From assembly GCA_045614825.1 (NCBI GenBank), contig JAZLDO010000040.1, positions 3,815 to 67,814 on the forward strand: 64,000 nucleotides of DNA. Direction: 5' to 3'. The stretch is from Candidatus Aphodosoma sp. (lineage in GTDB: Bacteria; Bacteroidota; Bacteroidia; Bacteroidales; Paludibacteraceae). Position 1 is the first letter of the stretch. Every line of letters begins with the position of its first letter. The notes under the pieces are model-generated. The model had not been told where the DNA came from and did not search any database. It saw only the letters and a program-made list of their open reading frames with translations. The translations under genes were made by a program, and so were the position numbers. Positions 811 to 55,382 of this stretch are shown in pieces.

Positions 811-896
811 TTAGATATTTAGTAGCGAGTAACGAGTAACGAGACTTGCCATTCAAAATTTTAGATATTTAGTAGCAAGTAGCAAGACTTACCATT
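811..896. repeat. Tandem duplication (about 50-nt period) with different internal 7-mers
   Basis: TTAGATATTTAGTAGCGAGTAACGAGTAACGAGACTTGCCATT (811-853) is repeated as TTAGATATTTAGTAGCAAGTAGCAAGACTTACCATT (861-896). Confidence 0.85.
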
Positions 897-898
897 TT

Positions 899-954
899 AA
901 TTCTCAATTCTCAATTCTCAATTCTCAATTCTCAATTCTCAATTCTCAACTCTC
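899..954. repeat. Heptamer tandem array (AATTCTC)x7 + AACTCTC
   Basis: Counted directly as 8 units of 7 nt. It overlaps the lolD 3' end and supplies the lolD stop codon. Confidence 0.95.
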
Positions 955-1592
955 CCATCAATCATGCGGATGACGCGGTCGGAGATAGAGGCGAGTTCTT
1001 CGTCGTGTGTCACGATGAGAATTGTTTGTCCGAAAGTGTCGCGCAGGTCGAAAAAGAGACGGTGAAGTTCGGTGCGATTCTGCGAGTCGAGACTACCAGA
1101 AGGCTCATCGGCAAGGATAATTTCGGGTTTATTGATAAGCGCACGGGCTACAGCAACACGTTGTTTTTCTCCACCCGAAAGTTCCGATGGTTTGTGACTG
1201 CAACGTTCGGCAAGTCCGAGATATTCAAGCAAACGGCGCGCCTCTTTACGTGCTTCAGACATAGATACACCAGCAATCAAAGCAGGCATCATCACATTCT
1301 CTTCTGCAGTGAATTCGGGCAAAAGTTGATGAAACTGGAACACAAAACCAATGTGCTTATTGCGAAAAGCAGAGAGTTCACGTTCTTTGAGAGAGAGTAC
1401 ATCGGTGCCATTAAGTATCACAGAGCCAGAATTAGGTCGGTCGAGAGTACCGACAATTTGCAAAAGAGTAGTTTTGCCAGCGCCACTTGGTCCCATGATA
1501 CTAACTATCTCGCGAGGTGCAATATGAAGGTCAACGCCTTTGAGCACTTCGAGAGAATCGTAAGATTTGTGTATGTTGTTTATTTTTATCAT
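939..1592 (-). CDS. lolD: ABC transporter ATP-binding protein, LolD/MacB type
   Basis: 217 aa with Walker [10 protein letters not shown], signature LSGGEKQR, Walker [12 protein letters not shown] and H-loop VTHD. The last codons and the TGA stop lie inside heptamer array 899-954. Confidence 0.8.
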
Positions 1593-2986: not shown

Positions 2987-3014
2987 AGTGAGGAATTAGG
3001 AGTGAGGAGTTTTT
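2987..3014. repeat. Heptamer array AGTGAGG AATTAGG AGTGAGG AGTTTTT
   Basis: Spans the 12-nt junction of the two chrA halves and encodes the last residues (..TPHS) of the upstream half. Confidence 0.75.
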
Positions 3015-5828: not shown

Positions 5829-5830
5829 TA

Positions 5831-5858
5831 AAGTTGAAAGTTGAGAGTTGAAAGTTAC
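5831..5858. repeat. Heptamer array AAGTTGA AAGTTGA GAGTTGA AAGTTAC
   Basis: Begins 3 nt after the gyrB stop, in the TGA-containing orientation on the plus strand. Confidence 0.9.
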
Positions 5859-7059: not shown

Positions 7060-7070
7060 TCTTTATTAAA

Positions 7071-7098
7071 TGCATAATTCATAATGCATAATTCATAA
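7071..7098. repeat. Heptamer array TGCATAA TTCATAA TGCATAA TTCATAA
   Basis: Lies just after the dnaN stop. A related shorter copy sits at 13578-13591 after obg. Confidence 0.85.
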
Positions 7099-7146
7099 TT
7101 TATGGGTTATGCATTTTTTATATAGACAGGAGATATCAGATACGAG

Positions 7147-7965
7147 ATGCAAGATATTACACCGTACATAAAAAGATTGTTGATGAGCCATATAACAGGT
7201 TTGTCTATGACTCAATTGTTGGCTGAAAGAGATTTATGCCTTTCGGAAGAACAACAAACGTGGTATAATGAGGCTATTGCGAGACTGAAAAACAATGAAC
7301 CATTACAACATGTACTAGGTTATTGCGAGTTTTATGGACGTAAGTTTAAATGCGATGGCAGAGCCCTTGTGCCTCGACCTGAGACTGAAGAACTTGTAGA
7401 GTGGATTGCGTCTAATTGGTCAACAGTCAACAGTCAACAGTCAACAGTCAAAATTCTTGATATTGGTACAGGAACAGGATGTATTGCTTTGTCGTTGGCA
7501 AAGGAGTTGCCTATGGCTAAAATTATAGCATTGGATATATCGAAAGAGGCTTTAAGTCTTGCGCGTGAAAATGCCGAAATGTTGGAGGTGAAGAATGTTG
7601 ATTTTGCCGAAGGAGATATATTAAATATGGGCGATGAGCATGTGGTGGCAAGAGAAAAATATGCAGTGATTGTAAGCAATCCACCATACGTGCGTGAATG
7701 CGAAAAGGTAGAGATGGAAGCAAATGTACTTGATTATGACCCTCATACTGCGTTGTTTGTATCGGATGAAGACCCCTTAATTTTCTATCGAACTATTGCT
7801 AAATTTGCATTGACACATCTTACACCTAATGGTGCGCTCTATTTTGAAATAAATCAGTATCTTGGTAGGGAGACTTGTGATTTGTTAGTTGCAATGGGAT
7901 ATAGAAATGTAGAGCTGAGAGATGACATTAATGGGAATGCGAGAATGGTAAAAGCCACATTATAA
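7147..7965 (+). CDS. prmC: Release-factor glutamine N5-methyltransferase
   Basis: 272 aa with SAM motif ILDIGTGTGCI and catalytic NPPY (VSNPPYV). It carries an in-frame CAACAGT array at 7421-7448. Confidence 0.85.
   Translation: MQDITPYIKRLLMSHITGLSMTQLLAERDLCLSEEQQTWYNEAIARLKNNEPLQHVLGYCEFYGRKFKCDGRALVPRPETEELVEWIASNWSTVNSQQSTVKILDIGTGTGCIALSLAKELPMAKIIALDISKEALSLARENAEMLEVKNVDFAEGDILNMGDEHVVAREKYAVIVSNPPYVRECEKVEMEANVLDYDPHTALFVSDEDPLIFYRTIAKFALTHLTPNGALYFEINQYLGRETCDLLVAMGYRNVELRDDINGNARMVKATL
7421..7448. repeat. Heptamer array (CAACAGT)x4 inside prmC
   Basis: In frame, encoding ..STVNSQQSTV.. immediately before the SAM-binding motif. Confidence 0.9.
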
Positions 7966-12335: not shown

Positions 12336-12365
12336 TTGGGTATTGTTTTTTGTTTAATTTTTCAA

Positions 12366-12388
12366 ATCTAACATCTAAGATCTAAGAT
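12366..12388. repeat. Heptamer array ATCTAAC ATCTAAG ATCTAAG AT
   Basis: Abuts the obg ATG at 12389. Confidence 0.8.
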
Positions 12389-13573: not shown

Positions 13574-13664
13574 TTAATGCATAATTCATAATTTTATTTG
13601 CAAAAAATAAAAAAAATATAGAATTTTCAAGATTAAAATTTACATTTTACTATAATATTCAAAC

Positions 13665-16184: not shown

Positions 16185-16910
16185 TTATTTCATTAAGTCA
16201 GTCATTGAATAAAAACCTGCAGGTTTGCCAACAAGGAATTCAGCCGCTACCACTGCGCCAAGGGCAAAGCCTTCGCGCGATTTTGCCTCGTGTGTGATAG
16301 TAATGCTATCCACCTCCGAGTCGTATTTTATAATATGAGTACCAGGCACTTTGCCTTCGCGCAAAGCCTCAATTAAGAGTTGAGAGTTGAGAGTTGAGAG
16401 CTGAGAATTGTGCAACACCCACTCCGATTTTCTATCCAAATTCTCCAAGATGCCTTCAGCAAGCGTGATCGCCGTACCACTTGGAGCATCTTTTTTCTCA
16501 GTGTGATGAATTTCGGTCATCGCCACATCATAATTGGCATAACGATTCATCATCTGAGCCAAACGTCTATTCAATTCAAAAAAAAGATTGACCCCCAACG
16601 AAAAATTAGAGGCCCAAAACAAAGTGTAACCCTTTTCTGCTATCTCTTGTTTCAACTCAGGCAACACCGCATTCCACCCCGTAGTACCCGACACCACAGG
16701 CACATCTACTGCCCAAGCCTTACGATAGTTTTCGACAGCCTTCGTTGGAACAGTAAACTCAATAGCTACATCCGCCGAAGCAAATGCCTCAGATTCAAAT
16801 TCTTCTTGATTATCAACATCAACTTTCGACACTATTTCATGTCCTCTCTCAAGGGCAATACGCTCAATAATATGCCCCATCTTACCATACCCTATTAATG
16901 CTATTTTCAT
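16185..16910 (-). CDS. dapB: 4-hydroxy-tetrahydrodipicolinate reductase
   Basis: 241 aa with the N-terminal dinucleotide motif IGYGKMG and EIHHTEKKDAPSGTA. It carries an in-frame heptamer insert at 16375-16409. Confidence 0.88.
   Translation of the reverse strand: MKIALIGYGKMGHIIERIALERGHEIVSKVDVDNQEEFESEAFASADVAIEFTVPTKAVENYRKAWAVDVPVVSGTTGWNAVLPELKQEIAEKGYTLFWASNFSLGVNLFFELNRRLAQMMNRYANYDVAMTEIHHTEKKDAPSGTAITLAEGILENLDRKSEWVLHNSQLSTLNSQLLIEALREGKVPGTHIIKYDSEVDSITITHEAKSREGFALGAVVAAEFLVGKPAGFYSMTDLMK
16375..16409. repeat. Heptamer array (AAGAGTT GAGAGTT GAGAGTT GAGAGCT GAGAATT) inside dapB
   Basis: In frame on the minus strand, encoding ..[11 protein letters not shown].. Confidence 0.9.
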
Positions 16911-16913
16911 ATT

Positions 16914-17954
16914 TTAGTTTTCTCTTATATAATCCAACGCCTCAAAAATCTCTTCTTTTGTAACAATCTGATTTATACGCACATCTCCAACACCAGCAAG
17001 CAACGTAAAATTTATCACACCACCACTATTTTTCTTGTCGTGCATCATTAATTCATACAATCTATCATACTGCTTACACATATAAGGGAATGCCCCATAA
17101 TACTCCTTTGCGAAAGCCAATATCTGCGACAATATCCTCCTATCGAATTTCAACTTCACAAACGACAAATACAACTCCGCCACCATACCCCACATCACCG
17201 CAAACCCATGCAACATCGGACTACCCACCTCATACGACAACGCCTCAAACGCATGACCTACCGTATGACCAAAATTCAAAGCCTTACGTTGTCCCTTTTC
17301 ATTTGGATCAAGCTCAACAACCGACTCCTTTATATCTAAATTTTGCTTCAACAATAGCGACAATCGTTTCACATCAAAGTCATCCAAATCATAACTCAAT
17401 GTCTGATCCAACAAAATAGAATCCGCTATCAACGCATGCTTCACCATCTCGGCATACCCCGACAATCGATTCCTAAAATCAAGCGTCTCAAAAAAACGCG
17501 TGTCAATCAACACCCTTTCCGCCTTAGCAAACACTCCAATCTCATTCTTCAACCCTCTAAAATTCACCCCCGTCTTGCCACCAGTAGCCGCATCAACCAC
17601 ACCGAGCAACGTAGTAGGAACATTCACAAAACGCATACCACGCTTAAATGTTGCCGCCACAAATCCCCCCAAATCCGTAACAACTCCCCCCCCTACATTC
17701 ACCAACAACGACGACCGAGTTGCTCCATTATCAACCAACACACTCCAAACCTTCACCCCCGTATCCAATGTCTTCACATCATCTCCCACATCAATTTTTA
17801 TAACATACGGACCAAACGCCGACCAATCAATCCTCGAAAAACAATGTTCAGCCGTATTCTCATCAACCAAAACAAACACCCTATCGACAGCTAAAGATTT
17901 AACCACAGCCGCCAACTCCACCTCAACTCTATCCGTTACAACAAAATTACCCAT
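16914..17954 (-). CDS. aroB: 3-dehydroquinate synthase
   Basis: 346 aa with GGGVVTDLGGFVAATFKRGMRFVNVPTTLL, ATGGKTGVN and the metal-binding HTVGHA. Confidence 0.85.
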   Translation of the reverse strand: MGNFVVTDRVEVELAAVVKSLAVDRVFVLVDENTAEHCFSRIDWSAFGPYVIKIDVGDDVKTLDTGVKVWSVLVDNGATRSSLLVNVGGGVVTDLGGFVAATFKRGMRFVNVPTTLLGVVDAATGGKTGVNFRGLKNEIGVFAKAERVLIDTRFFETLDFRNRLSGYAEMVKHALIADSILLDQTLSYDLDDFDVKRLSLLLKQNLDIKESVVELDPNEKGQRKALNFGHTVGHAFEALSYEVGSPMLHGFAVMWGMVAELYLSFVKLKFDRRILSQILAFAKEYYGAFPYMCKQYDRLYELMMHDKKNSGGVINFTLLAGVGDVRINQIVTKEEIFEALDYIREN

Positions 17955-17977
17955 TCCCTATTCCTTATTCTCTATTA

Positions 17978-20917: not shown

Positions 20918-32137
<11,220 letters not shown>

Positions 32138-50700: not shown

Positions 50701-51133
50701 TCAAATCATACACCCCTTTGGGCAAAAATATCTCTTTATATGCAATATTATAGATTTGAGCATTCTTATAAGAGAGTGTTTTCCCTCCATCCGAACTGAT
50801 ATACAAGGCATTATCACCCACAAAAGCATCAGCATTCGACATATACCATCTATTTTCTGCTTTTGCCGCATTAGGACCCACATTCAAGTTCCACGAACTA
50901 TATGTCGTCGTATCTTCAAAACCCTCAAAATATGGCAAATTAACATAACTTTGAGCTTGTATTCTCAATGCAACCACAGAAAACAACAACAAAAAAGCCA
51001 CACACAACCCTTTATAATTGTGTATAGCACACTTGTGGAACAAAAATTCTTGCTTCAAATCAAAACGGTTTTTCATAAAAAGAGAATAGATTTTATTTAT
51101 TAATAAGTTATGCGCCAGTGTTTTACAAAACAT
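47774..51133 (-). CDS. Secreted multidomain protein (1119 aa), collinear paralogue of the 1089-aa protein
   Basis: Same architecture as its neighbour, with h-region LCVAFLLLFSVVALRIQAQ. An alternative start at 51076 (MKNRF) is possible. Unknown domain at 49418-50131, two Cys repeats at 48599-48922, tail ...GVYLLELVIGDERLVRKVVVE. Confidence 0.85.
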   Translation of the reverse strand: MFCKTLAHNLLINKIYSLFMKNRFDLKQEFLFHKCAIHNYKGLCVAFLLLFSVVALRIQAQSYVNLPYFEGFEDTTTYSSWNLNVGPNAAKAENRWYMSNADAFVGDNALYISSDGGKTLSYKNAQIYNIAYKEIFLPKGVYDLSFTWKCEGEMGADGLYVCWVSTKMATNSSVTSEPTFIKNTKLVFDGVDFLCGSKEWKTSTTTITQQSTTMYKLVFVWKNDASNNNPSLPSIVIDNIQIGAQGCGKPENVRTSALSSDISVRWDGGATGYELMYRRYGESEVHHVTGINQTSYTVKGMEEGVYDIFVRSCCPDDTSVWVVQNNVLVYNALSHCIDFINWDIDGTECETGAHVPGGAFVNDKFYPNVTSGSVRIGAVDFGYNSGQSRHTKHYIPGEMDPRTGNELPTVPEGEVVSVRLGNWNMGGEFESVTYTHYLDSGSNMILLLKYAIVIEDPGHDRVEQPVFMLELLDEHDNPLDASGCGDANFVANTKELINNPNSDGTWHIINAGTPILWKEWTTVGINMTEYAKYGPLKFKIRLTVFDCAQGGHFGYAYYTLNCEEATIEGLSCGENAGANINAPIGFNYRWYRVRDNKTVCTTRNLQGIEKNDTALYRCKVMFAQDSTCYFELDASLLPKLPKAQFSPKWVPRFCNENYINFQNTSHVTTARGATGEKCETHRWYLKENGDWTLIHEGDSLMYRFPNGGGKFDVMLQTGISNDECIDDTIVTVNVPRLGAVIDTICDTICEGKSLKIEGRRYMQEGFYRVYRGTSFGGCDSTVYLDLKVIPKERDTISAYLCGDETYVLNGQEFSRSGKYRTVYKADSTSKCECDTVVTLFLTVAKLSMDESIKLCSGENLVLEYSDGETGFESYEIQFSDAAKAAGLKDVAKTPLMEGGVIDLKVSEISDKKDGVNPLIPGKYEMNVVFYYKDENGEMQKCVNAVGLDVLYSSKTIEQKFTNVITLLDTEHNGGFEFDHIQWYKNGVPMEGENDTYIYVQEEDINNSDIYTVGLIKKGEREEIMSCGLSFNVGTPVENVEALGVDIVSNKIDVGERVVVVFEEGYNDCVVRWWSVAGILVGEEVVVKDGYLSSTPQRQGVYLLELVIGDERLVRKVVVE

Positions 51134-51181
51134 CTTCCCATAACAGTTCTATCACACAACAAAACGCAATACATCAGCAGG

Positions 51182-51189
51182 CAAATTTA
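51182..51189 (-). promoter_or_regulatory. -7 box TAAATTTG upstream of the 1119-aa gene (head of the 30-kb locus)
   Basis: CAAATTTA on the plus strand, 49 nt before the ATG at 51133. Confidence 0.5.
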
Positions 51190-51304
51190 AGTAAAATAAT
51201 TGATATTCACAACAATTAAGACAAATAAAAATTAAATTACTACCATTTTTTACTTTTTTATACCACACAAATACTAAAACAATCTTTTTTTCGTTTTTTT
51301 TTCG

Positions 51305-51312
51305 TATCTTTG
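51305..51312 (+). promoter_or_regulatory. -7 box TATCTTTG upstream of the M23 peptidase gene
   Basis: 46 nt before the ATG. Confidence 0.65.
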
Positions 51313-51357
51313 CACTCTACTATTTTCATTTCCAAAAAGCACTAAAAAACACTATTT

Positions 51358-52239
51358 ATGAAAATAAAACTAACACTATTTTTACTAACAATCACTCTAT
51401 CGGTTTTCGCACAAGCCGACCCAACCTCAACATCCTCTTCTACTACAGACGAATCTTACAAAATCCCCGATTTAATCGAATTTTTCAACTCATATACTAC
51501 CTTTTCAGAGGGAGAAGAAGAACTCTCAACTTTCAACTCTCAACTTTCAACTCTCAATTCTAAACTCTCAATTCTAAATTCTAAAATTCCCCTCGATTCC
51601 CTCCCCGACTCACTCCATATCGCTTGTACCGACTATCACCCAATAACAACAAGTCAACGCATCACTTCTCGTTTCGGCATCCGTGGTTCACGTTTCCACT
51701 TTGGTGTTGATATCGGTATTCCATACGGCGACACTATTCGTTCTCCATTTTCAGGCACTGTGCGTCTTGCTACATATCAACGAGGCGGGTATGGTCGTTA
51801 CGTCATCATTACTCACGACAATGGACTCGAATCTGTGATGGCTCATTTTTCACGCACTTTGGTCAAAGAGGGACAACAAATCACAGCAGGTCAACCTGTC
51901 GGTTTAGCAGGTAGCACTGGTCGATCTACTGGGTCGCACCTACATCTCGAATTTCGACTATTTGGCAACCAATTTAACCCGGAAAAACTTATTGATTTCA
52001 ATACATTTAAAATCAACACTCAAGACGATGGTTATTATTTCATGACCATTGCCGATACCTATTCTCATCGCCCTCAACTCGAAGAGATGAAGCGTGCAGC
52101 ATACCACCGTGTTCGCTCTGGCGACACCCTTTCCCACATCGCAAAACGCTATGGCACAACGGTCAACCGCCTCTGCTCACTCAACCGAATCAAACCAACA
52201 TCAATCCTCCAAATCGGACAACGCATACGCTATAGATAA
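51358..52239 (+). CDS. M23 family metallopeptidase with C-terminal LysM domain
   Basis: 293 aa with signal peptide ...SVFAQ, M23 motifs HFGVDIG and GSHLHLEF, and Lys[30 protein letters not shown] heptamer-encoded linker lies at 51521-51590. Confidence 0.88.
51521..51590. repeat. Heptamer array, 10 units (AACTCTC/AACTTTC/AATTCTA) inside the M23 peptidase gene
   Basis: In frame, encoding [22 protein letters not shown]. Confidence 0.9.
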
Positions 52240-52240
52240 T

Positions 52241-52310
52241 GAGGAATTGAGAATTGAGAATTGAGAATGGAGAATGGAGAGTTGAGAATTGAGAATGGAG
52301 AATGGAGAAC
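52241..52310. repeat. Heptamer array, 10 units, GAGAATT/GGAGAAT orientation
   Basis: Starts at the M23 gene stop. It is the left arm of an inverted pair with 52846-52943. Confidence 0.9.
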
Positions 52311-52411
52311 CGAAGGTCTTTGAGCCTTTGGCGAAAAAATGTAGAATTGAGAGTTGAAGATCTTTGAGTCTTTGGCGATAAAAATTGAAAAACAAAAGAA
52401 AAATAAAGCAT

Positions 52412-52774
52412 ATGAAACCAAATATTGTTGCTGATAAAAGTAAACTTTTTGCGCTAAGAATCATAAAATTACATTACTTTTTGCTTGAAGAAAAAAAAGA
52501 ATATGTAATGTCTCGCCAAATACTTAAAAGTGGCACAAGTATTGGCGCAAATATTAGAGAAAGTAAAAATGCACAAAGCAACTTAGACTTCATAAATAAA
52601 CTTTCTATTGCCTTAAAAGAAGCTGACGAAACAGCTTATTGGCTCGAACTTCTATCCGAAAGCTCTATAATTGATCAAAAACAATTTGATTCATTATACT
52701 CTGATTTAGATGAAATCATATCGCTGTTAATTTCAATTATAAAAACAACAAAAAATAATATTAACAAGAATTGA
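52412..52774 (+). CDS. Four-helix-bundle protein (23S rRNA intervening-sequence protein / Avd-like family)
   Basis: 120 aa from the ATG at 52412 (the track start 52385 is TTG). Family-typical motifs are present: QILKSGTSIGANIRES....S..DFINKLSIALKEADETAYWLELL. Confidence 0.7.
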   Translation: MKPNIVADKSKLFALRIIKLHYFLLEEKKEYVMSRQILKSGTSIGANIRESKNAQSNLDFINKLSIALKEADETAYWLELLSESSIIDQKQFDSLYSDLDEIISLLISIIKTTKNNINKN

Positions 52775-52845
52775 AAATAAATTTGTTAAGTATGGTAAAT
52801 GCTAATTGAATATAATTGAATGTAATAGAGTGAATATAATTGAGC

Positions 52846-52943
52846 TTTTCTCAATTCTCAATTCTCAATTCTCAACTCTCCATTCTCAATTCCCAATTCT
52901 CCATTCTCAACTCTCAATTCTCAATTCTCAATTCTCAATTCAA
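52846..52943. repeat. Heptamer array, 14 units, AATTCTC/AACTCTC/CATTCTC orientation
   Basis: Ends 1 nt before the lpdA ATG. It is the reverse complement of the 52241-52310 array type. Confidence 0.92.
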
Positions 52944-52944
52944 A

Positions 52945-54282
52945 ATGTTTCAACTAGCAGTCTTAGGTGGTGGCCCTGCGGGCTACACCGCAGCCGAACG
53001 AGCTGCACAAGCCGGACTCAACGTGGTCCTTTTCGAAAAAAATGCACTTGGTGGCACATGTCTAAACGTTGGTTGTATCCCAACCAAAACTCTCCTCTAT
53101 TCGTCTAAACTCTACTACAATGCTGTCAACAGTAGCAAGTATGGCGTTAAAGCTGAGGGTGTACAATTCGAATACGACAAAATCGTAGCTCGCAAAAACA
53201 AAGTAGTGCGTAAACTCATCGCTGGTATCAAAGCCAAAATGACCAACAACAACGTAACTGTCATCAATGGCGAAGCTACAGTTGTCGAAAATGCTAATGG
53301 CGTAGTTACTATTGCCTGTGGCGACGAACAATACCAAGCCGAAAAACTCCTTATTTGTACAGGCTCACAAGTTGCTATCCCACCAATCCCAGGTGTCGAT
53401 ACAGCTGAATATTGGACCTCTACCGAAGCCCTCGAAACTAAAGAAGTACCTGAATCACTCGTAGTTATCGGCGGTGGCGTTATCGGTATCGAATTTGCTG
53501 GTCTTTTTGCTACATTTGGCACAAAAGTTACTGTCATCGAAATGGCACCAGAAATCCTCCCTGGTATTGATACAGAAATATCTGCTATGCTCCGTGCCGA
53601 ATTGGCTAAAAAAGGCGTAGAATTCCACCTCTCTTCTAAAGTGCTCCATGTAGCCACAGGTTGCGTAACATATTCTGACTCAGAAGGCGAACACAAAGCC
53701 GAAGCCACTAACGTGCTTCTCTGCGTAGGTCGCAAACCAAACCTCGCTGGCACCGAAGCTCTCGGACTCGAACCTTTCCGCAATGGCATCAAAGTAGATG
53801 AGCACATGCGCACATCTGTGTCTAACGTATGGGCAGCTGGCGACGTTACAGCATTCTCATTGCTCGCTCACACTGCAGTGCGCGAAGCCGAAGTGGCTGT
53901 TAATGATATTGCTGGTATCGACGATCGCATGCACTATCGTGCTATCCCAGGTGTAATTTACACATCTCCTGAAGTAGCTGGTTGTGGTGCTACTGAAGAT
54001 GCTCTTAAAGCCGAAGGTCGTGAATATCACGTACACAAACTCGCTATGACCTATTCTGGTCGTTTCGTAGCCGAAAACGAAGGTGGCAATGGTATCTGCA
54101 AAATCATCACCGATGCCGACAATCATGTAATTGGCGCACACCTCATTGGCAATCCAGCATCAGAGTTGATATCAACAGCATGCGTAGCCATCGAAGCAGG
54201 CATGACTATTGAGCAACTCCGCAAAGTGGTATTCCCACACCCAACAGTTGCTGAGATTTTCAAAGAAACCATTTGCGAGTAA
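52945..54282 (+). CDS. lpdA: Dihydrolipoyl dehydrogenase
   Basis: 445 aa from the ATG at 52945 (MFQLAVLGGGPAGY FAD motif) with redox-active GGTCLNVGCIPTK and the C-terminal HPT.AE interface. The 35 upstream codons in the track are a translated heptamer array starting at TTG. Confidence 0.9.
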   Translation: MFQLAVLGGGPAGYTAAERAAQAGLNVVLFEKNALGGTCLNVGCIPTKTLLYSSKLYYNAVNSSKYGVKAEGVQFEYDKIVARKNKVVRKLIAGIKAKMTNNNVTVINGEATVVENANGVVTIACGDEQYQAEKLLICTGSQVAIPPIPGVDTAEYWTSTEALETKEVPESLVVIGGGVIGIEFAGLFATFGTKVTVIEMAPEILPGIDTEISAMLRAELAKKGVEFHLSSKVLHVATGCVTYSDSEGEHKAEATNVLLCVGRKPNLAGTEALGLEPFRNGIKVDEHMRTSVSNVWAAGDVTAFSLLAHTAVREAEVAVNDIAGIDDRMHYRAIPGVIYTSPEVAGCGATEDALKAEGREYHVHKLAMTYSGRFVAENEGGNGICKIITDADNHVIGAHLIGNPASELISTACVAIEAGMTIEQLRKVVFPHPTVAEIFKETICE

Positions 54283-54388
54283 GCGAGAGCAAAGTCAAGC
54301 TTGCTTGAGCTTTGCCGAGCATGAGCAATATCTTGAGCGAAGCGAAAAATTTCTGAATAACAATAAGGTTGTCTAATTAGTACAAGGG

Positions 54389-54412
54389 GTTGTCTAATTA
54401 GGCAACTTTTTT
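54389..54412 (+). terminator. Intrinsic terminator downstream of lpdA
   Basis: GTTGTCTAATTAGGCAAC + TTTTTT. Confidence 0.6.
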
Positions 54413-54426
54413 AATATGTAGCAACA

Positions 54427-54470
54427 CCCAATATTGTCCCCCTGTCTTAGGGCTCGAGCGTCCGCAAGGA
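54427..54470 (+). repeat. GC-rich dispersed repeat with CCCCCTGTCTTAGGG(GG) hairpin core, copy 1
   Basis: CCCAATATTGTCCCCCTGTCTTAGGGCTCGAGCGTCCGCAAGG. Confidence 0.75.
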
Positions 54471-54543
54471 AAGTTAAAAACAGGGAACTTTTACAAAATA
54501 CCACAAAAACACTCAATGGTTTTGATAATTAAAACTATTTTTG

Positions 54544-54551
54544 TAACTTTG
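54544..54551 (+). promoter_or_regulatory. -7 box TAACTTTG upstream of the kinase-like ORF
   Basis: 34 nt before the ATG at 54585. Confidence 0.65.
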
Positions 54552-54584
54552 CACAAAAATAAAAAGGTAAAAATATCCATAGAA

Positions 54585-55382
54585 ATGGAACAATATACAA
54601 ATGAAAATTTAACTTTAGAATCTATATATACGTCTATTGAAAGTAATGGTTTTACCTATTATACATTAGAAAAAATAGATCAATATACACAAGAAATACT
54701 AAATGGAAAAACAAATCTTATTCAATTCAATCAACAAGAGCATGCAGGCCTCTGCTGTGCAGGTGAGGTGCTCATTGGGGCGTACATCGTATGCAACTAC
54801 GCGAGAAAATGCCTTGAGGCAAGTTCAGATACTTCAACAAGCGAAAGAATCCCATCAAATTGGGAAATAGATGAACTACAAGAGAAGTTAGTTCAACAAT
54901 GGGCAGAAGCAAAACAGATTTGGTTTGCTAATGCAGAATATGATATTGAATCAGAATATGGTCCAATAATAGCGCAAGGTGCAGAGGCAAAAGTATATTA
55001 TAAAACAGGAGATTCGTCTGTAATAAAACTTCGCACTTCCATATATGCCACTTTGAGCAAAGCCTTAGAAGCAATTGTATTACACAATGCATTATTTCCA
55101 GAAACTCAAATGAATGTAATTGGCTTTATGCGAGATTCAGATGAATTATTTAGATTTATACTTACACAACCTTATGTAGGGTGCAAACGCCTTGCAACAA
55201 AACAAGAAATTGATATCCTTGTGGGAAACTTAGGATTTGAAGATAATTGGAATGGAGAAGGTATAAACTACAAAAGCGACCGACTTTCATTAGAAGATAT
55301 GCATCCTGCGAATGTTTTTATTGATACAATTTCAGACAAAGCCATTTGTATTGATTGTATAGTGAAATTTATAAGAAAATAA
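54585..55382 (+). CDS. Hypothetical protein with a protein-kinase-like signature in its C-terminal half
   Basis: 265 aa from the ATG at 54585; the track start 54516 lies upstream of the -7 box at 54544-54551. A Gly-loop-like AQGAEAKVYYK and a catalytic-loop-like LEDMHPANVFID resemble small PKL/RIO/Kdo-kinase-type folds. No signal peptide. Confidence 0.55.
   Translation: MEQYTNENLTLESIYTSIESNGFTYYTLEKIDQYTQEILNGKTNLIQFNQQEHAGLCCAGEVLIGAYIVCNYARKCLEASSDTSTSERIPSNWEIDELQEKLVQQWAEAKQIWFANAEYDIESEYGPIIAQGAEAKVYYKTGDSSVIKLRTSIYATLSKALEAIVLHNALFPETQMNVIGFMRDSDELFRFILTQPYVGCKRLATKQEIDILVGNLGFEDNWNGEGINYKSDRLSLEDMHPANVFIDTISDKAICIDCIVKFIRK

What the first reader, a model, noticed from the sequence alone, without database searches (positions are those of the whole stretch)
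52241..52943. Four-helix-bundle (23S-IVS/Avd-like) gene bracketed by inverted heptamer arrays: a cassette-like insertion between M23 and lpdA
A 10-unit array in GAGAATT orientation (52241-52310) and a 14-unit array in AATTCTC orientation (52846-52943) form an inverted pair. They flank a 535-bp segment whose only gene is a 120-aa four-helix-bundle protein of the family first seen in 23S rRNA intervening sequences and related to the DGR accessory protein Avd. Between the left array and the gene lie two 18-nt direct repeats, TCTTTGAG(C/T)CTTTGGCGA, at 52317-52334 and 52361-52378, 44 nt apart. The arrays could pair as a long stem or act as recombination substrates that invert or excise the cassette. 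Genes of this family are scattered in many copies in Bacteroidota genomes without a known mobility mechanism.
Basis: partly seen in the sequence, partly recalled or inferred. Interest (0 to 1): 0.65.

Follow-up and report, generated by a model that had tools for sequence, protein, structure and literature searches.

The report
IVS-like gene cassette with heptamer arms
A small, strongly conserved four-helix-bundle gene sits between two host genes, bracketed by mirror-image runs of a 7-base repeat; the same bracket surrounds relatives of this gene in many bacterial phyla and in viral contigs, which links a very large orphan gene family to the unexplained bacterial heptamer repeats and to the intervening sequences of ribosomal RNA.

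Summary
A 10-unit GAGAATT-type array (52241-52310) and a 14-unit AATTCTC array (52846-52943) bracket one 120-aa PF05635/TIGR02436 gene between an M23 peptidase gene and lpdA. The host is a Candidatus Aphodosoma-like Bacteroidales genome.

The arrays belong to the cassette. Sister species with an empty site have no arrays. A second allele (53% identical) at the same site carries a different, matched heptamer pair.

The bracket is a property of the family. Of 73 relatives from many phyla, 82% have a period-7 array upstream and 67% downstream, against 19% of other spacers in the same loci. Where both are present, the two units are reverse complements in 35 of 40 cases. The same holds in a distant Xcc0516-like clade and in viral contigs.

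The gene almost always points the same way as its operon (57 of 58) and is under strong purifying selection.

The closest known thing is the ORF-bearing 23S rRNA intervening sequence (Coxiella S23p), which has heptamer repeats, a terminal stem and RNase III excision. This cassette lies in an mRNA operon junction instead.

I found no evidence that the arrays invert or excise the cassette. Presence/absence here arose by homologous allele replacement. RNA-level function is inferred, not shown.

The parts
51358..52239 (+). Upstream host gene: M23 peptidase with a LysM domain. Its stop codon (52237-52239) directly precedes the left array. Its linker holds an in-frame heptamer array at 51521-51585.
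   Evidence: Pfam PF01551 and PF01476; array; alignment of orthologues.
52241..52310 (+). Left (5') arm: 10 purine-rich heptamers (GAGAATT, GAGAATG, GAGAGTT).
   Evidence: Copy number differs between strains that encode the identical protein.
52294..52381 (+). Two 44-nt tandem copies at 82% identity. Each holds the 18-nt motif TCTTTGAG(C/T)CTTTGGCGA (52317-52334 and 52361-52378). Function unknown. It is replaced by unrelated sequence in other strains that carry the same gene.
   Evidence: The motif is also found in the empty-site spacer of L010.
52412..52774 (+). [quoted passage not shown]
   Evidence: Window against L002: 24 synonymous and 0 non-synonymous differences; dN/dS 0-0.13 across orthologues.
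52775..52845 (+). AT-rich inner spacer with 10-14-nt tandem repeats (TAATTGAATA and similar), expanded in other strains. It contains TAAATTTG at about 52779-52786, which fits the Bacteroidetes -7 promoter box TAnnTTTG (consensus from my own knowledge). It is a possible internal promoter for lpdA, untested.
52846..52943 (+). Right (3') arm: 14 pyrimidine-rich heptamers (AATTCTC, CATTCTC, AACTCTC, AATTCCC), the reverse complement of the left arm. It ends 1 nt before the lpdA start codon.
   Evidence: The duplex of the two arms is -97.2 kcal/mol with RNA parameters and -64.9 with DNA parameters.
52945..54282 (+). Downstream host gene: dihydrolipoyl dehydrogenase (lpdA), 445 aa. In more distant relatives its ATG lies only 5-20 nt after the M23 stop.
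   Evidence: Pfam.

Best explanation
This is an intervening-sequence-type guest cassette that lives in an operon junction instead of in 23S rRNA. The unit is [purine-rich heptamer array] - four-helix-bundle gene - [complementary pyrimidine-rich heptamer array], and it is inherited and exchanged as one piece.

It sits between the stop codon of the M23 gene and the start codon of lpdA. In more distant relatives those two codons are only 5-20 nt apart. The cassette points the same way as both host genes.

Inferred mechanism. The cassette is transcribed as part of the host transcript. The two arrays then anneal into a stem of about 70 bp. The stem loops the insert out and brings the M23 stop and the lpdA start next to each other. 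Like the terminal stems of the founding members of this family in Coxiella and Leptospira 23S rRNA, the stem is a substrate for RNase III, which would release the guest mRNA. Because the arms are tandem repeats, they can pair in many registers. They can also regrow by slippage and by template switching between the inverted arrays, so pairing survives rapid change in copy number.

Shown: the architecture, co-inheritance of arms and gene, generality across phyla, the orientation bias, purifying selection on the protein, and spread between strains by homologous recombination.

Inferred: co-transcription, stem formation in vivo, RNase III cleavage, and any benefit or role of the protein.
For: 1. 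The arms belong to the cassette. Six sister species have M23 followed by lpdA with a 137-190-nt spacer and no heptamer arrays. Nine or more contigs with the gene have both arrays. A second allele at the same site (53% identical; L012, L014) has a different matched pair, TGAGGAA and TTCCTCA.

2. The bracket is family-wide. Of 73 relatives with full flanks, 60 have an array within 250 nt upstream, 49 downstream and 40 both. Of other intergenic spacers in the same loci, 19% (28 of 145) have one. The upstream unit equals the reverse complement of the downstream unit, with at most 1 mismatch, in 35 of 40 cases; in direct orientation this holds in 5 of 40. A distant Xcc0516-like clade shows the same (39 of 69 upstream, 21 of 69 downstream, 13 of 16 pairs complementary). 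So do viral contigs (13 of 23 upstream, 16 of 23 downstream, 10 both).

3. In a sample anchored on (GACAGAT)x3 arrays, all 4 family genes found lie directly beside the array, with the same polarity.

4. Unit variants are partly mirrored in both arms at orthologous sites: GAAAATT with AATTTTC in L289 and L293, and GGGGAAT with ATTCCCC in L002.

5. The gene is co-oriented with its upstream neighbour in 67 of 74 loci and with its downstream neighbour in 68 of 74. Where both neighbours run the same way, it agrees with them in 57 of 58. Ordinary adjacent pairs are co-oriented in 75% of cases. Arrays abut the upstream stop codon, with a median offset of -3 nt.

6. The predicted fold of 52225-52960 pairs the arms: MFE -214.9 kcal/mol, z -14. 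The duplex of the arms alone is -97 kcal/mol.

7. Published precedent. The Coxiella IVS carries an S23p ORF preceded by 2-3 tandem heptamers (GACAGAT) whose copy number varies between strains. It has a 28-bp terminal stem, and RNase III cuts at the start of the first repeat (PMC4990558).

8. More distant relatives have M23 and lpdA 5-20 nt apart, so the cassette interrupts a tight junction.
Against: Arm mismatches show no excess of G:U over A:C on the sense strand (33 against 49, with 119 transversion-type mismatches). There is therefore no positive sign of selection on RNA pairing, and the arms could be kept alike by a DNA copying process.

In L288 the arms are only loosely complementary.

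Heptamer arrays with the same polarity rule (purine-rich after stops, pyrimidine-rich before starts) also occur at junctions without this gene.

A -7-box-like TAAATTTG after the gene could give lpdA its own promoter, in which case the two arms need not lie on one transcript.

No transcript data were available. Rfam has no match. In the Xcc0516-like clade the bracket is less frequent, and the four true Xanthomonas loci showed none.
Confidence: 0.5

Rival explanations
1. The arms act at the DNA level, as in REP/RAYT 'REPtrons' or MITEs. They fold as single-strand hairpins or serve as terminal inverted repeats that are recognised or made by a trans-acting enzyme, or by the Avd-like protein itself. 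Under this reading the many solo arrays and ORF-less array hairpins are non-autonomous derivatives of the ORF-bearing cassettes.
For: Arms and gene are co-inherited.

Arm mismatches show no wobble bias, which fits a DNA copying process.

ORF-less [purine array][pyrimidine array] hairpins with loops of 1-146 nt occur in the same genomes (L089, L091, L092, L106, L118, L131, L159, L167).

Arrays more than 600 nt from the gene share its arm unit more often than in permuted pairings: mean distance 1.24 against 2.16, with 0 of 2000 permutations as low.

The family is spread over many phyla and viral contigs, with 57-69% protein identity across phyla.

Xanthomonas has 70-75 inverted pairs of GGGAATC arrays per genome (PMC4692102), and GGGAATC-type arrays flank Xcc0516-like genes in Lysobacterales.
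Against: No transposase or recombinase lies in or near the cassette, and there is no target-site duplication.

The unit sequence differs widely between cassettes, which argues against sequence-specific end recognition by a shared enzyme.

The only recent gain or loss that could be resolved is a homologous recombination tract.

The 120-aa protein has no known catalytic motif. Only about 4% of (GACAGAT)x3 arrays have such a gene nearby.
Confidence: 0.2
2. The arrays are ordinary host simple-sequence repeats of gene boundaries: heptamer LSSRs such as TAACTGA or STRR, perhaps with a role in translation or mRNA stability. The gene merely sits between an after-stop array and a before-start array, and the complementarity is a by-product of a genome-wide repeat 'dialect' combined with a polarity rule.
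For: In this window, purine-rich arrays start 1-9 nt after stop codons and pyrimidine-rich arrays end 0-5 nt before start codons at junctions without the gene.

Of non-IVP spacers in IVP-bearing loci, 19% have arrays.

Units are shared within a locus.

MacGregor 2015 describes such arrays upstream of start codons in Beggiatoaceae, Cyanobacteria and Bacteroidetes, including Paludibacter (PMC4679880).
Against: Empty M23-lpdA sites in sister species have no arrays at all.

The filled/empty pair L288 and L011 is nearly identical in its flanks, yet the arrays come and go with the gene.

Two alleles at one site each carry their own matched unit.

Arrays are 3-4 times more frequent next to the gene than in other spacers of the same loci.

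The window uses at least 10 different units, yet the two arms match each other.
Confidence: 0.1
3. The inverted arrays are substrates for recombination that flips the cassette, making it an invertible, phase-variable switch, or that excises it.
For: The arms are long inverted repeats (66-78 nt at 86-91%). Bacteroidales are rich in invertible DNA segments (established knowledge). A 62-nt piece of the empty-site spacer is inverted between two species, but that piece has its own, different inverted repeats.
Against: The orientation is the same in every contig recovered, for both alleles. Family-wide, 57 of 58 agree with the operon. Recombination between inverted repeats inverts a segment and cannot excise it. 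No recombinase gene is nearby.
Confidence: 0.03
4. The gene is the Avd accessory protein of a diversity-generating retroelement.
For: The fold is Avd-like (TM 0.72-0.80 to 4DWL). PF05635 is the family most often found in DGR loci (PMC10053308).
Against: No reverse transcriptase domain is found among the genes scanned in roughly 42.8-62.0 kb of the window or in the annotated neighbours of L001-L004. There is no template/variable repeat pair; the only direct repeats of 50 nt or more in 42-64 kb are the arrays and two paralogous gene segments.
Confidence: 0.02

Closest known systems
ORF-bearing intervening sequences (IVS) of 23S rRNA (Coxiella burnetii S23p; Leptospira)
   Same: The encoded protein belongs to the same family (PF05635). 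The size is similar, about 430-760 nt against about 700 nt here. The termini are complementary and form a stem. Tandem heptamers lie just upstream of the ORF (GACAGAT x2-3 in Coxiella) and vary in copy number between strains. The distribution is sporadic and horizontal (PMC4990558).
   Different: This cassette lies between two protein-coding genes, not in helix 9, 25 or 45 of 23S rRNA. Its arms are whole arrays of 10 and 14 heptamers (66-78 bp), against a 28-bp stem. The protein here is under strong purifying selection, whereas the Coxiella ORF is described as decaying. RNase III excision is shown there and only inferred here.
Heptanucleotide simple-sequence arrays: GGGAATC in Xanthomonas, GGGGA(T/C)T (STRR) in Nostoc, TAACTGA in Beggiatoaceae, Cyanobacteria and Bacteroidetes
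   Same: They are tandem period-7 arrays, mostly intergenic, that abut start or stop codons. Copy number varies between close relatives. Related units occur (GGGAATC, GGGGAAT, GAGAATT). Xanthomonas has 70-75 convergent (inverted) pairs per genome (PMC4692102; PMC4679880).
   Different: The passages of those papers that my term searches returned tie the arrays to no gene family; neither paper was read in full. Here the inverted pair encloses a specific gene, and the link holds across phyla. I found no paper making this link.
REP/RAYT 'REPtrons' and hairpin MITEs processed by RNase III (Correia/NEMIS of Neisseria) (from my own knowledge)
   Same: A single gene is flanked by inverted copies of a short repeat that is also scattered, alone or as hairpin doublets, through intergenic spacers of the same genome. 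The hairpins lie within operon transcripts.
   Different: RAYT is a recognisable Y1 transposase and REP sequences are conserved within a genome. Here the protein is a 120-aa helical bundle with no known catalytic site, and the repeat is a tandem array whose unit drifts.
Avd of diversity-generating retroelements
   Same: It has the same fold and belongs to the same superfamily.
   Different: There is no reverse transcriptase and no template/variable repeats nearby. Avd genes are not reported to be bracketed by heptamer arrays.

Membership tests
PF05635 / TIGR02436 four-helix-bundle (23S rRNA IVS protein) family | Profile score above the curated cut-off | tested here: met
   Pfam 93.7 bits against a cut-off of 33.8; TIGR02436 105.3 bits against a cut-off of 24.
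PF05635 / TIGR02436 four-helix-bundle (23S rRNA IVS protein) family | Four-helix-bundle fold like 2RLD and 2GSC | tested here: met
   AlphaFold model at pLDDT 95.9 with four helices; TM 0.88-0.91 to 2RLD and 0.72-0.79 to 2GSC.
PF05635 / TIGR02436 four-helix-bundle (23S rRNA IVS protein) family | Pentameric assembly | not testable with these tools
   2RLD and 2GSC each have five chains. The oligomer was not modelled.
23S rRNA intervening sequence (IVS) element | Encodes an S23p-family ORF (ORF-bearing subclass) | tested here: met
23S rRNA intervening sequence (IVS) element | Complementary termini that fold into a stem enclosing the element | tested here: met
23S rRNA intervening sequence (IVS) element | Located in 23S rRNA (helix 9, 25 or 45) | tested here: not met
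   It lies between the M23 peptidase gene and lpdA. No Rfam match in 51000-54500.
23S rRNA intervening sequence (IVS) element | Excised from the transcript by RNase III | not testable with these tools
   No transcript data were available. Shown for Coxiella (PMC4990558).
Heptanucleotide LSSR/STRR arrays | Tandem period-7 units, intergenic, copy number variable between close relatives | tested here: met
   about 6-14 units on the left and 13-16 on the right among contigs that encode the identical protein.
Diversity-generating retroelement | Adjacent reverse transcriptase | tested here: not met
Diversity-generating retroelement | Template repeat / variable repeat pair | tested here: not met
Transposon or MITE | Target-site duplication at the ends | tested here: not met
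   The junctions GATAA|TGAGG... and ...TTCAAA|ATG have no duplicated flank.
Transposon or MITE | Transposase encoded, or many near-identical copies in the genome | tested here: inconclusive
   No transposase nearby. Only one copy of the gene lies in the 64-kb window. The rest of the genome was not available.
Invertible DNA switch | Both orientations present in the population | tested here: not met
   All recovered contigs show one orientation. Reads were not available.
Integron gene cassette | attC site and an integrase with attI nearby | tested here: not met
   No integrase among the neighbours. The repeats flank the gene on both sides rather than forming one 3' attC.

The most novel reading that the evidence does not exclude
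PF05635 four-helix-bundle proteins and heptanucleotide arrays form one two-part system found across Bacteria. The ORF-bearing cassettes are the autonomous form. The Avd-like pentamer binds, protects or helps to propagate its own heptamer arrays. The widespread solo arrays and array hairpins (STRR, GGGAATC, TAACTGA and the like), as well as the ORF-less rRNA intervening sequences, are its non-autonomous offspring. This would parallel RAYT genes and REP sequences.
Probability: 0.15. Interest if true: 0.9.

Novelty: new variant of a known kind. Interest (0 to 1): 0.68.

Why it matters
Three puzzles have stood apart for decades:
- where the intervening sequences of 23S rRNA come from and how they move (open since about 1990);
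- what the abundant heptanucleotide repeats of Cyanobacteria, Xanthomonas, Beggiatoaceae and Bacteroidetes are for;
- what the very large family of stand-alone Avd-like four-helix-bundle proteins does.

The evidence here puts all three into one architecture: gene plus complementary heptamer arms, sitting inside operons, across phyla and in viral contigs. That gives concrete experiments, namely arm swaps, rnc mutants, and binding of the protein to its own repeat.

It also has a practical consequence. These cassettes interrupt operons without an obvious promoter or terminator. Their arrays break assemblies and lengthen gene calls; lpdA is called with a false N-terminal extension through the array in L288. 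Annotation pipelines could recognise them.

Tried and rejected
1. Wobble test for RNA-level selection on the arms. G:U was 33 against A:C 49. This gives no support; I report it as evidence against the RNA reading, not as proof of it.

2. Rfam over 51000-54500 at E up to 1: no match.

3. PADLOC defence models for both alleles and for the neighbouring kinase: no match.

4. Fetching the Coxiella IVS itself with (GACAGAT)x3. I used the loci it returned as an array-anchored sample instead.

5. Looking for close homologues at other genomic sites as evidence of recent transposition. The 81-93% homologues P0002, P0008 and P0009 are all at the same M23-lpdA site.

6. The idea that every unit carries stop codons in all three frames. 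This is true for GAGAATT but for only 23 of 71 upstream arrays, so I rejected it as a general explanation.

7. The idea that the purine-rich units act as Shine-Dalgarno mimics. The Clostridia-type units (CGGAATT) and the AT-rich units do not fit, so I did not pursue it.

8. The 18-nt motif as a dispersed element. Apart from weak 3-mismatch matches that look like chance, it is confined to Aphodosoma M23-lpdA spacers, including one empty site. Its function is unknown.

9. Protein-to-unit covariation as a test of specific binding. I did not run it, because co-inheritance alone would produce the same signal.

Full report
**What is there.** The window comes from a Bacteroidales genome close to Candidatus Aphodosoma (Paludibacteraceae). 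Its LpdA is 96-97% identical to that of several Aphodosoma MAGs. At 52241-52310 there are ten purine-rich heptamers (GAGAATT, GAGAATG, GAGAGTT), starting right after the stop codon of an M23/LysM peptidase gene. At 52846-52943 there are fourteen heptamers of the reverse complement (AATTCTC and variants), ending 1 nt before the ATG of lpdA.

The arrays are far beyond chance: 40 matches to a double unit against 1.4 expected. They are complementary over 66-78 nt at 86-91%.

[quoted passage not shown] It matches PF05635 at E 1e-26, TIGR02436, and PDB 2RLD at E 2e-52. The confident four-helix model superposes on 2RLD, on Xcc0516 and on the DGR protein Avd.

**The arrays belong to the cassette, not to the host junction.** Seven metagenome contigs encode exactly the same protein. 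All have M23-gene-lpdA with both arrays, but with different numbers and variants of the unit, and partly unrelated inner spacers.

Among species representatives with about 97% LpdA identity, six have M23 followed by lpdA with a 137-190-nt spacer and no heptamer array. One has the same cassette. Two (L012, L014) have a different allele of the gene (53% identity), flanked by a different matched pair, TGAGGAA on the left and TTCCTCA on the right. In more distant relatives the M23 stop and the lpdA start are 5-20 nt apart. The cassette therefore interrupts what was a tight operon junction.

**The bracket is a property of the gene family.**
- *Main sample.* I fetched 80 loci encoding relatives (55-74% identity) from Bacteroidales, Clostridia, Cloacimonadales, Treponema, Planctomycetota and Anaerolineales, and scanned their flanks with a simple period-7 detector. 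Of 73 with full flanks, 60 have an array within 250 nt upstream, 49 downstream and 40 both.
- *Control.* Of other intergenic spacers in the same loci, 19% (28 of 145) have an array.
- *Matched arms.* The unit differs from locus to locus (GAGAATT, GAAAATT, CGGAATT, GAAAGTT, GAAAACG, GATAATT, AGGTGAA, GAGGTAT and others). Even so, the upstream unit is the reverse complement of the downstream unit, within one mismatch, in 35 of 40 cases.
- *Polarity.* The 5' arm is purine-rich in 65 of 71 arrays. The 3' arm is pyrimidine-rich in 63 of 67.
- *Distant clade.* A separate sample built on the distant Xcc0516 sequence shows the same pattern in Lysobacterales, Betaproteobacteria, Acidobacteriota, Planctomycetota and others, with G-rich units such as GGGAATC, GGGGAGT and GGCAGTG. 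Arrays are upstream in 39 of 69 and downstream in 21 of 69, and 13 of 16 pairs are complementary. The four true Xanthomonas loci showed none.
- *Viral contigs.* Ten of 23 have arrays on both sides.
- *Reverse test.* In 93 loci picked only for a (GACAGAT)x3 array, four have such a gene, and in all four it lies right beside the array with the same polarity.
- *Unbiased sample.* In 857 kb of lpdA loci, arrays occur only in the Aphodosoma loci, the Prevotellaceae-like loci L022-L024 and two other loci with a single array each (L020, L084). Apart from one pair formed by the M23 in-frame array with the left arm in the window, the only inverted pairs are these cassettes.

**How the cassette sits in its host.** The gene points the same way as its upstream neighbour in 67 of 74 loci and as its downstream neighbour in 68 of 74. 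Where the two neighbours agree with each other, it agrees with them in 57 of 58. Ordinary adjacent pairs agree in 75% of cases.

Spacers are short, with medians of 69 and 62 nt, so the arrays fill them. The left array typically starts at, or contains, the upstream stop codon (median offset -3 nt).

The protein is under very strong purifying selection. Window against L002 shows 24 synonymous and 0 non-synonymous differences, and dN/dS is 0-0.13 over orthologues whose dS exceeds 1. It is therefore a working protein, unlike the decaying ORF described for Coxiella.

**History at this site.** Homologues at 81-93% identity are all at the same M23-lpdA junction, with arms that mix GAAAATT/AATTTTC with GAGAATT/AATTCTC. 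The cassette is an old resident.

On an lpdA tree the three states (type A, type B, empty) are interleaved. The closest filled/empty pair (L288 and L011) is identical for more than 2.7 kb upstream. All 17 M23 differences fall in the last 104 nt of the gene, and four lpdA differences fall in its first 14 nt. That is the footprint of homologous replacement of an allele that includes the whole spacer. It is not the footprint of insertion or excision at the arrays. Nothing suggests inversion.

**Most likely mechanism.** The best-supported reading is that this is the same kind of element as the ORF-bearing intervening sequences of 23S rRNA, living in an mRNA operon junction. The published Coxiella element has an ORF of the same family and two to three tandem heptamers (GACAGAT) just upstream of it, with strain-variable copy number. 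It also has a 28-bp terminal stem, and RNase III cleavage at the start of the first repeat (PMC4990558).

Here the transcript would fold so that the two arrays pair. The arm duplex is -97 kcal/mol, and the whole 736 nt folds at -215 kcal/mol with z -14. This loops out the guest gene and brings the M23 stop next to the lpdA start. A duplex of this length would be expected to be cut by RNase III.

These steps are inferred. The wobble test gave no support for selection on sense-strand pairing. The likeness of the arms may instead be maintained by slippage and by template switching between the inverted arrays (the mechanism is from established knowledge; it was not tested here). A -7-box-like TAAATTTG after the gene might give lpdA its own promoter.

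**Rivals.**
- *DNA-level, REPtron-like system.* ORF-less array hairpins occur in the same genomes. Distant arrays share the unit of the local cassette. Both keep this reading alive. It lacks an enzyme and a target duplication.
- *Independent host repeats.* Arrays with the same polarity occur at other junctions in the window. This reading fails on the empty sites and on the two alleles with different matched units.
- *DGR role.* Excluded locally, since there is no reverse transcriptase and no template/variable repeats.

**What is known and what is new.** Heptamer arrays as such are described: TAACTGA (PMC4679880), and GGGAATC with 70-75 inverted pairs per Xanthomonas genome (PMC4692102). So are heptamers inside the Coxiella IVS and the scattering of this gene family, even inside cas operons (PMC3936711) and in the rRNA genes of CPR bacteria.

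I found no paper that links the gene family to flanking inverted heptamer arrays. The search covers open-access text only. I therefore rate this a new variant of a known kind.

**Limits.** The repeat detector and the gene calls are my own simple scripts. Each sample is the 80 best hits to one query. Only one 64-kb window of the source genome was available. No expression data were available.

Noticed in passing
window 895-954, 1598-1622, 2989-3010, 5830-5856, 7069-7100, 12362-12388, 13575-13593, 17946-17970: Many short operon spacers in this genome consist of heptamer arrays of at least ten different units. Purine-rich arrays start 1-9 nt after a stop codon; the ABC ATPase ORF 939-1592 (-) even ends inside one. 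Pyrimidine-rich arrays end 0-5 nt before a start codon.
   Followed up: partly
window 7419-7451, 16371-16406, 25210-25248, 51521-51585: Heptamer arrays lie inside coding sequences, always in the stop-free orientation, and read as heptad-like peptides ([13 protein letters not shown] in the M23 linker). In M23 the unit and the copy number differ between species, whether or not the cassette is present.
   Followed up: partly
L008:4865-5000 vs L011:4849-5000 (empty M23-lpdA spacers): The 'empty' spacers are hairpin-like themselves. A 62-nt piece is inverted between two species (87% identity) and is bounded by AACGCAAATT / AATTTGCGTT. It is either a small invertible segment or a palindromic element inserted in both orientations.
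   Followed up: partly
L089, L091, L092, L106, L118, L131, L159, L167 (coordinates): ORF-less hairpins, made of a purine-rich array followed 1-146 nt later by its complementary array, occur in genomes that carry the gene. They may be loop-deleted or non-autonomous forms of the cassette.
   Followed up: no
L022:4652-5000, L023, L024 (Prevotellaceae M23-lpdA spacers): The same junction in Leyella/Segatella-labelled MAGs is 169-376 nt long and full of heptamer arrays, but has no four-helix-bundle gene. L022 shares the piece TTTT(T)CGGTAAGCGAGAGCAGA with the type-B cassette of L012 and L014, so it may be a decayed cassette.
   Followed up: no
window 54516-55382: A gene with a Kinase-PolyVal domain (PF18762, typical of polyvalent proteins of mobile elements) follows lpdA. 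The region downstream of lpdA differs between otherwise syntenic contigs: a Schlafen/AlbA_2-HATPase gene in L001, and rplS/TonB in L002.
   Followed up: no
window 821-886 (- strand): Two 44-nt direct repeats, each containing heptamers (TCGTTAC / TTGCTAC in sense), lie between the GAGAATT array and the next start codon (808). The layout is the same as the 44-nt duplication next to the left arm of the cassette.
   Followed up: no
L288:3406-4839: A gene caller extended lpdA by 32 codons through the stop-free right array (477 aa against 445 aa). This is an annotation artefact that these arrays will cause routinely.
   Followed up: no
L289:5694-6248, L290:3836-4390: A second, longer (184-aa) gene with a weak PF05635 match lies about 1 kb downstream of lpdA in two contigs of the same clade. 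I did not examine it for arrays.
   Followed up: no
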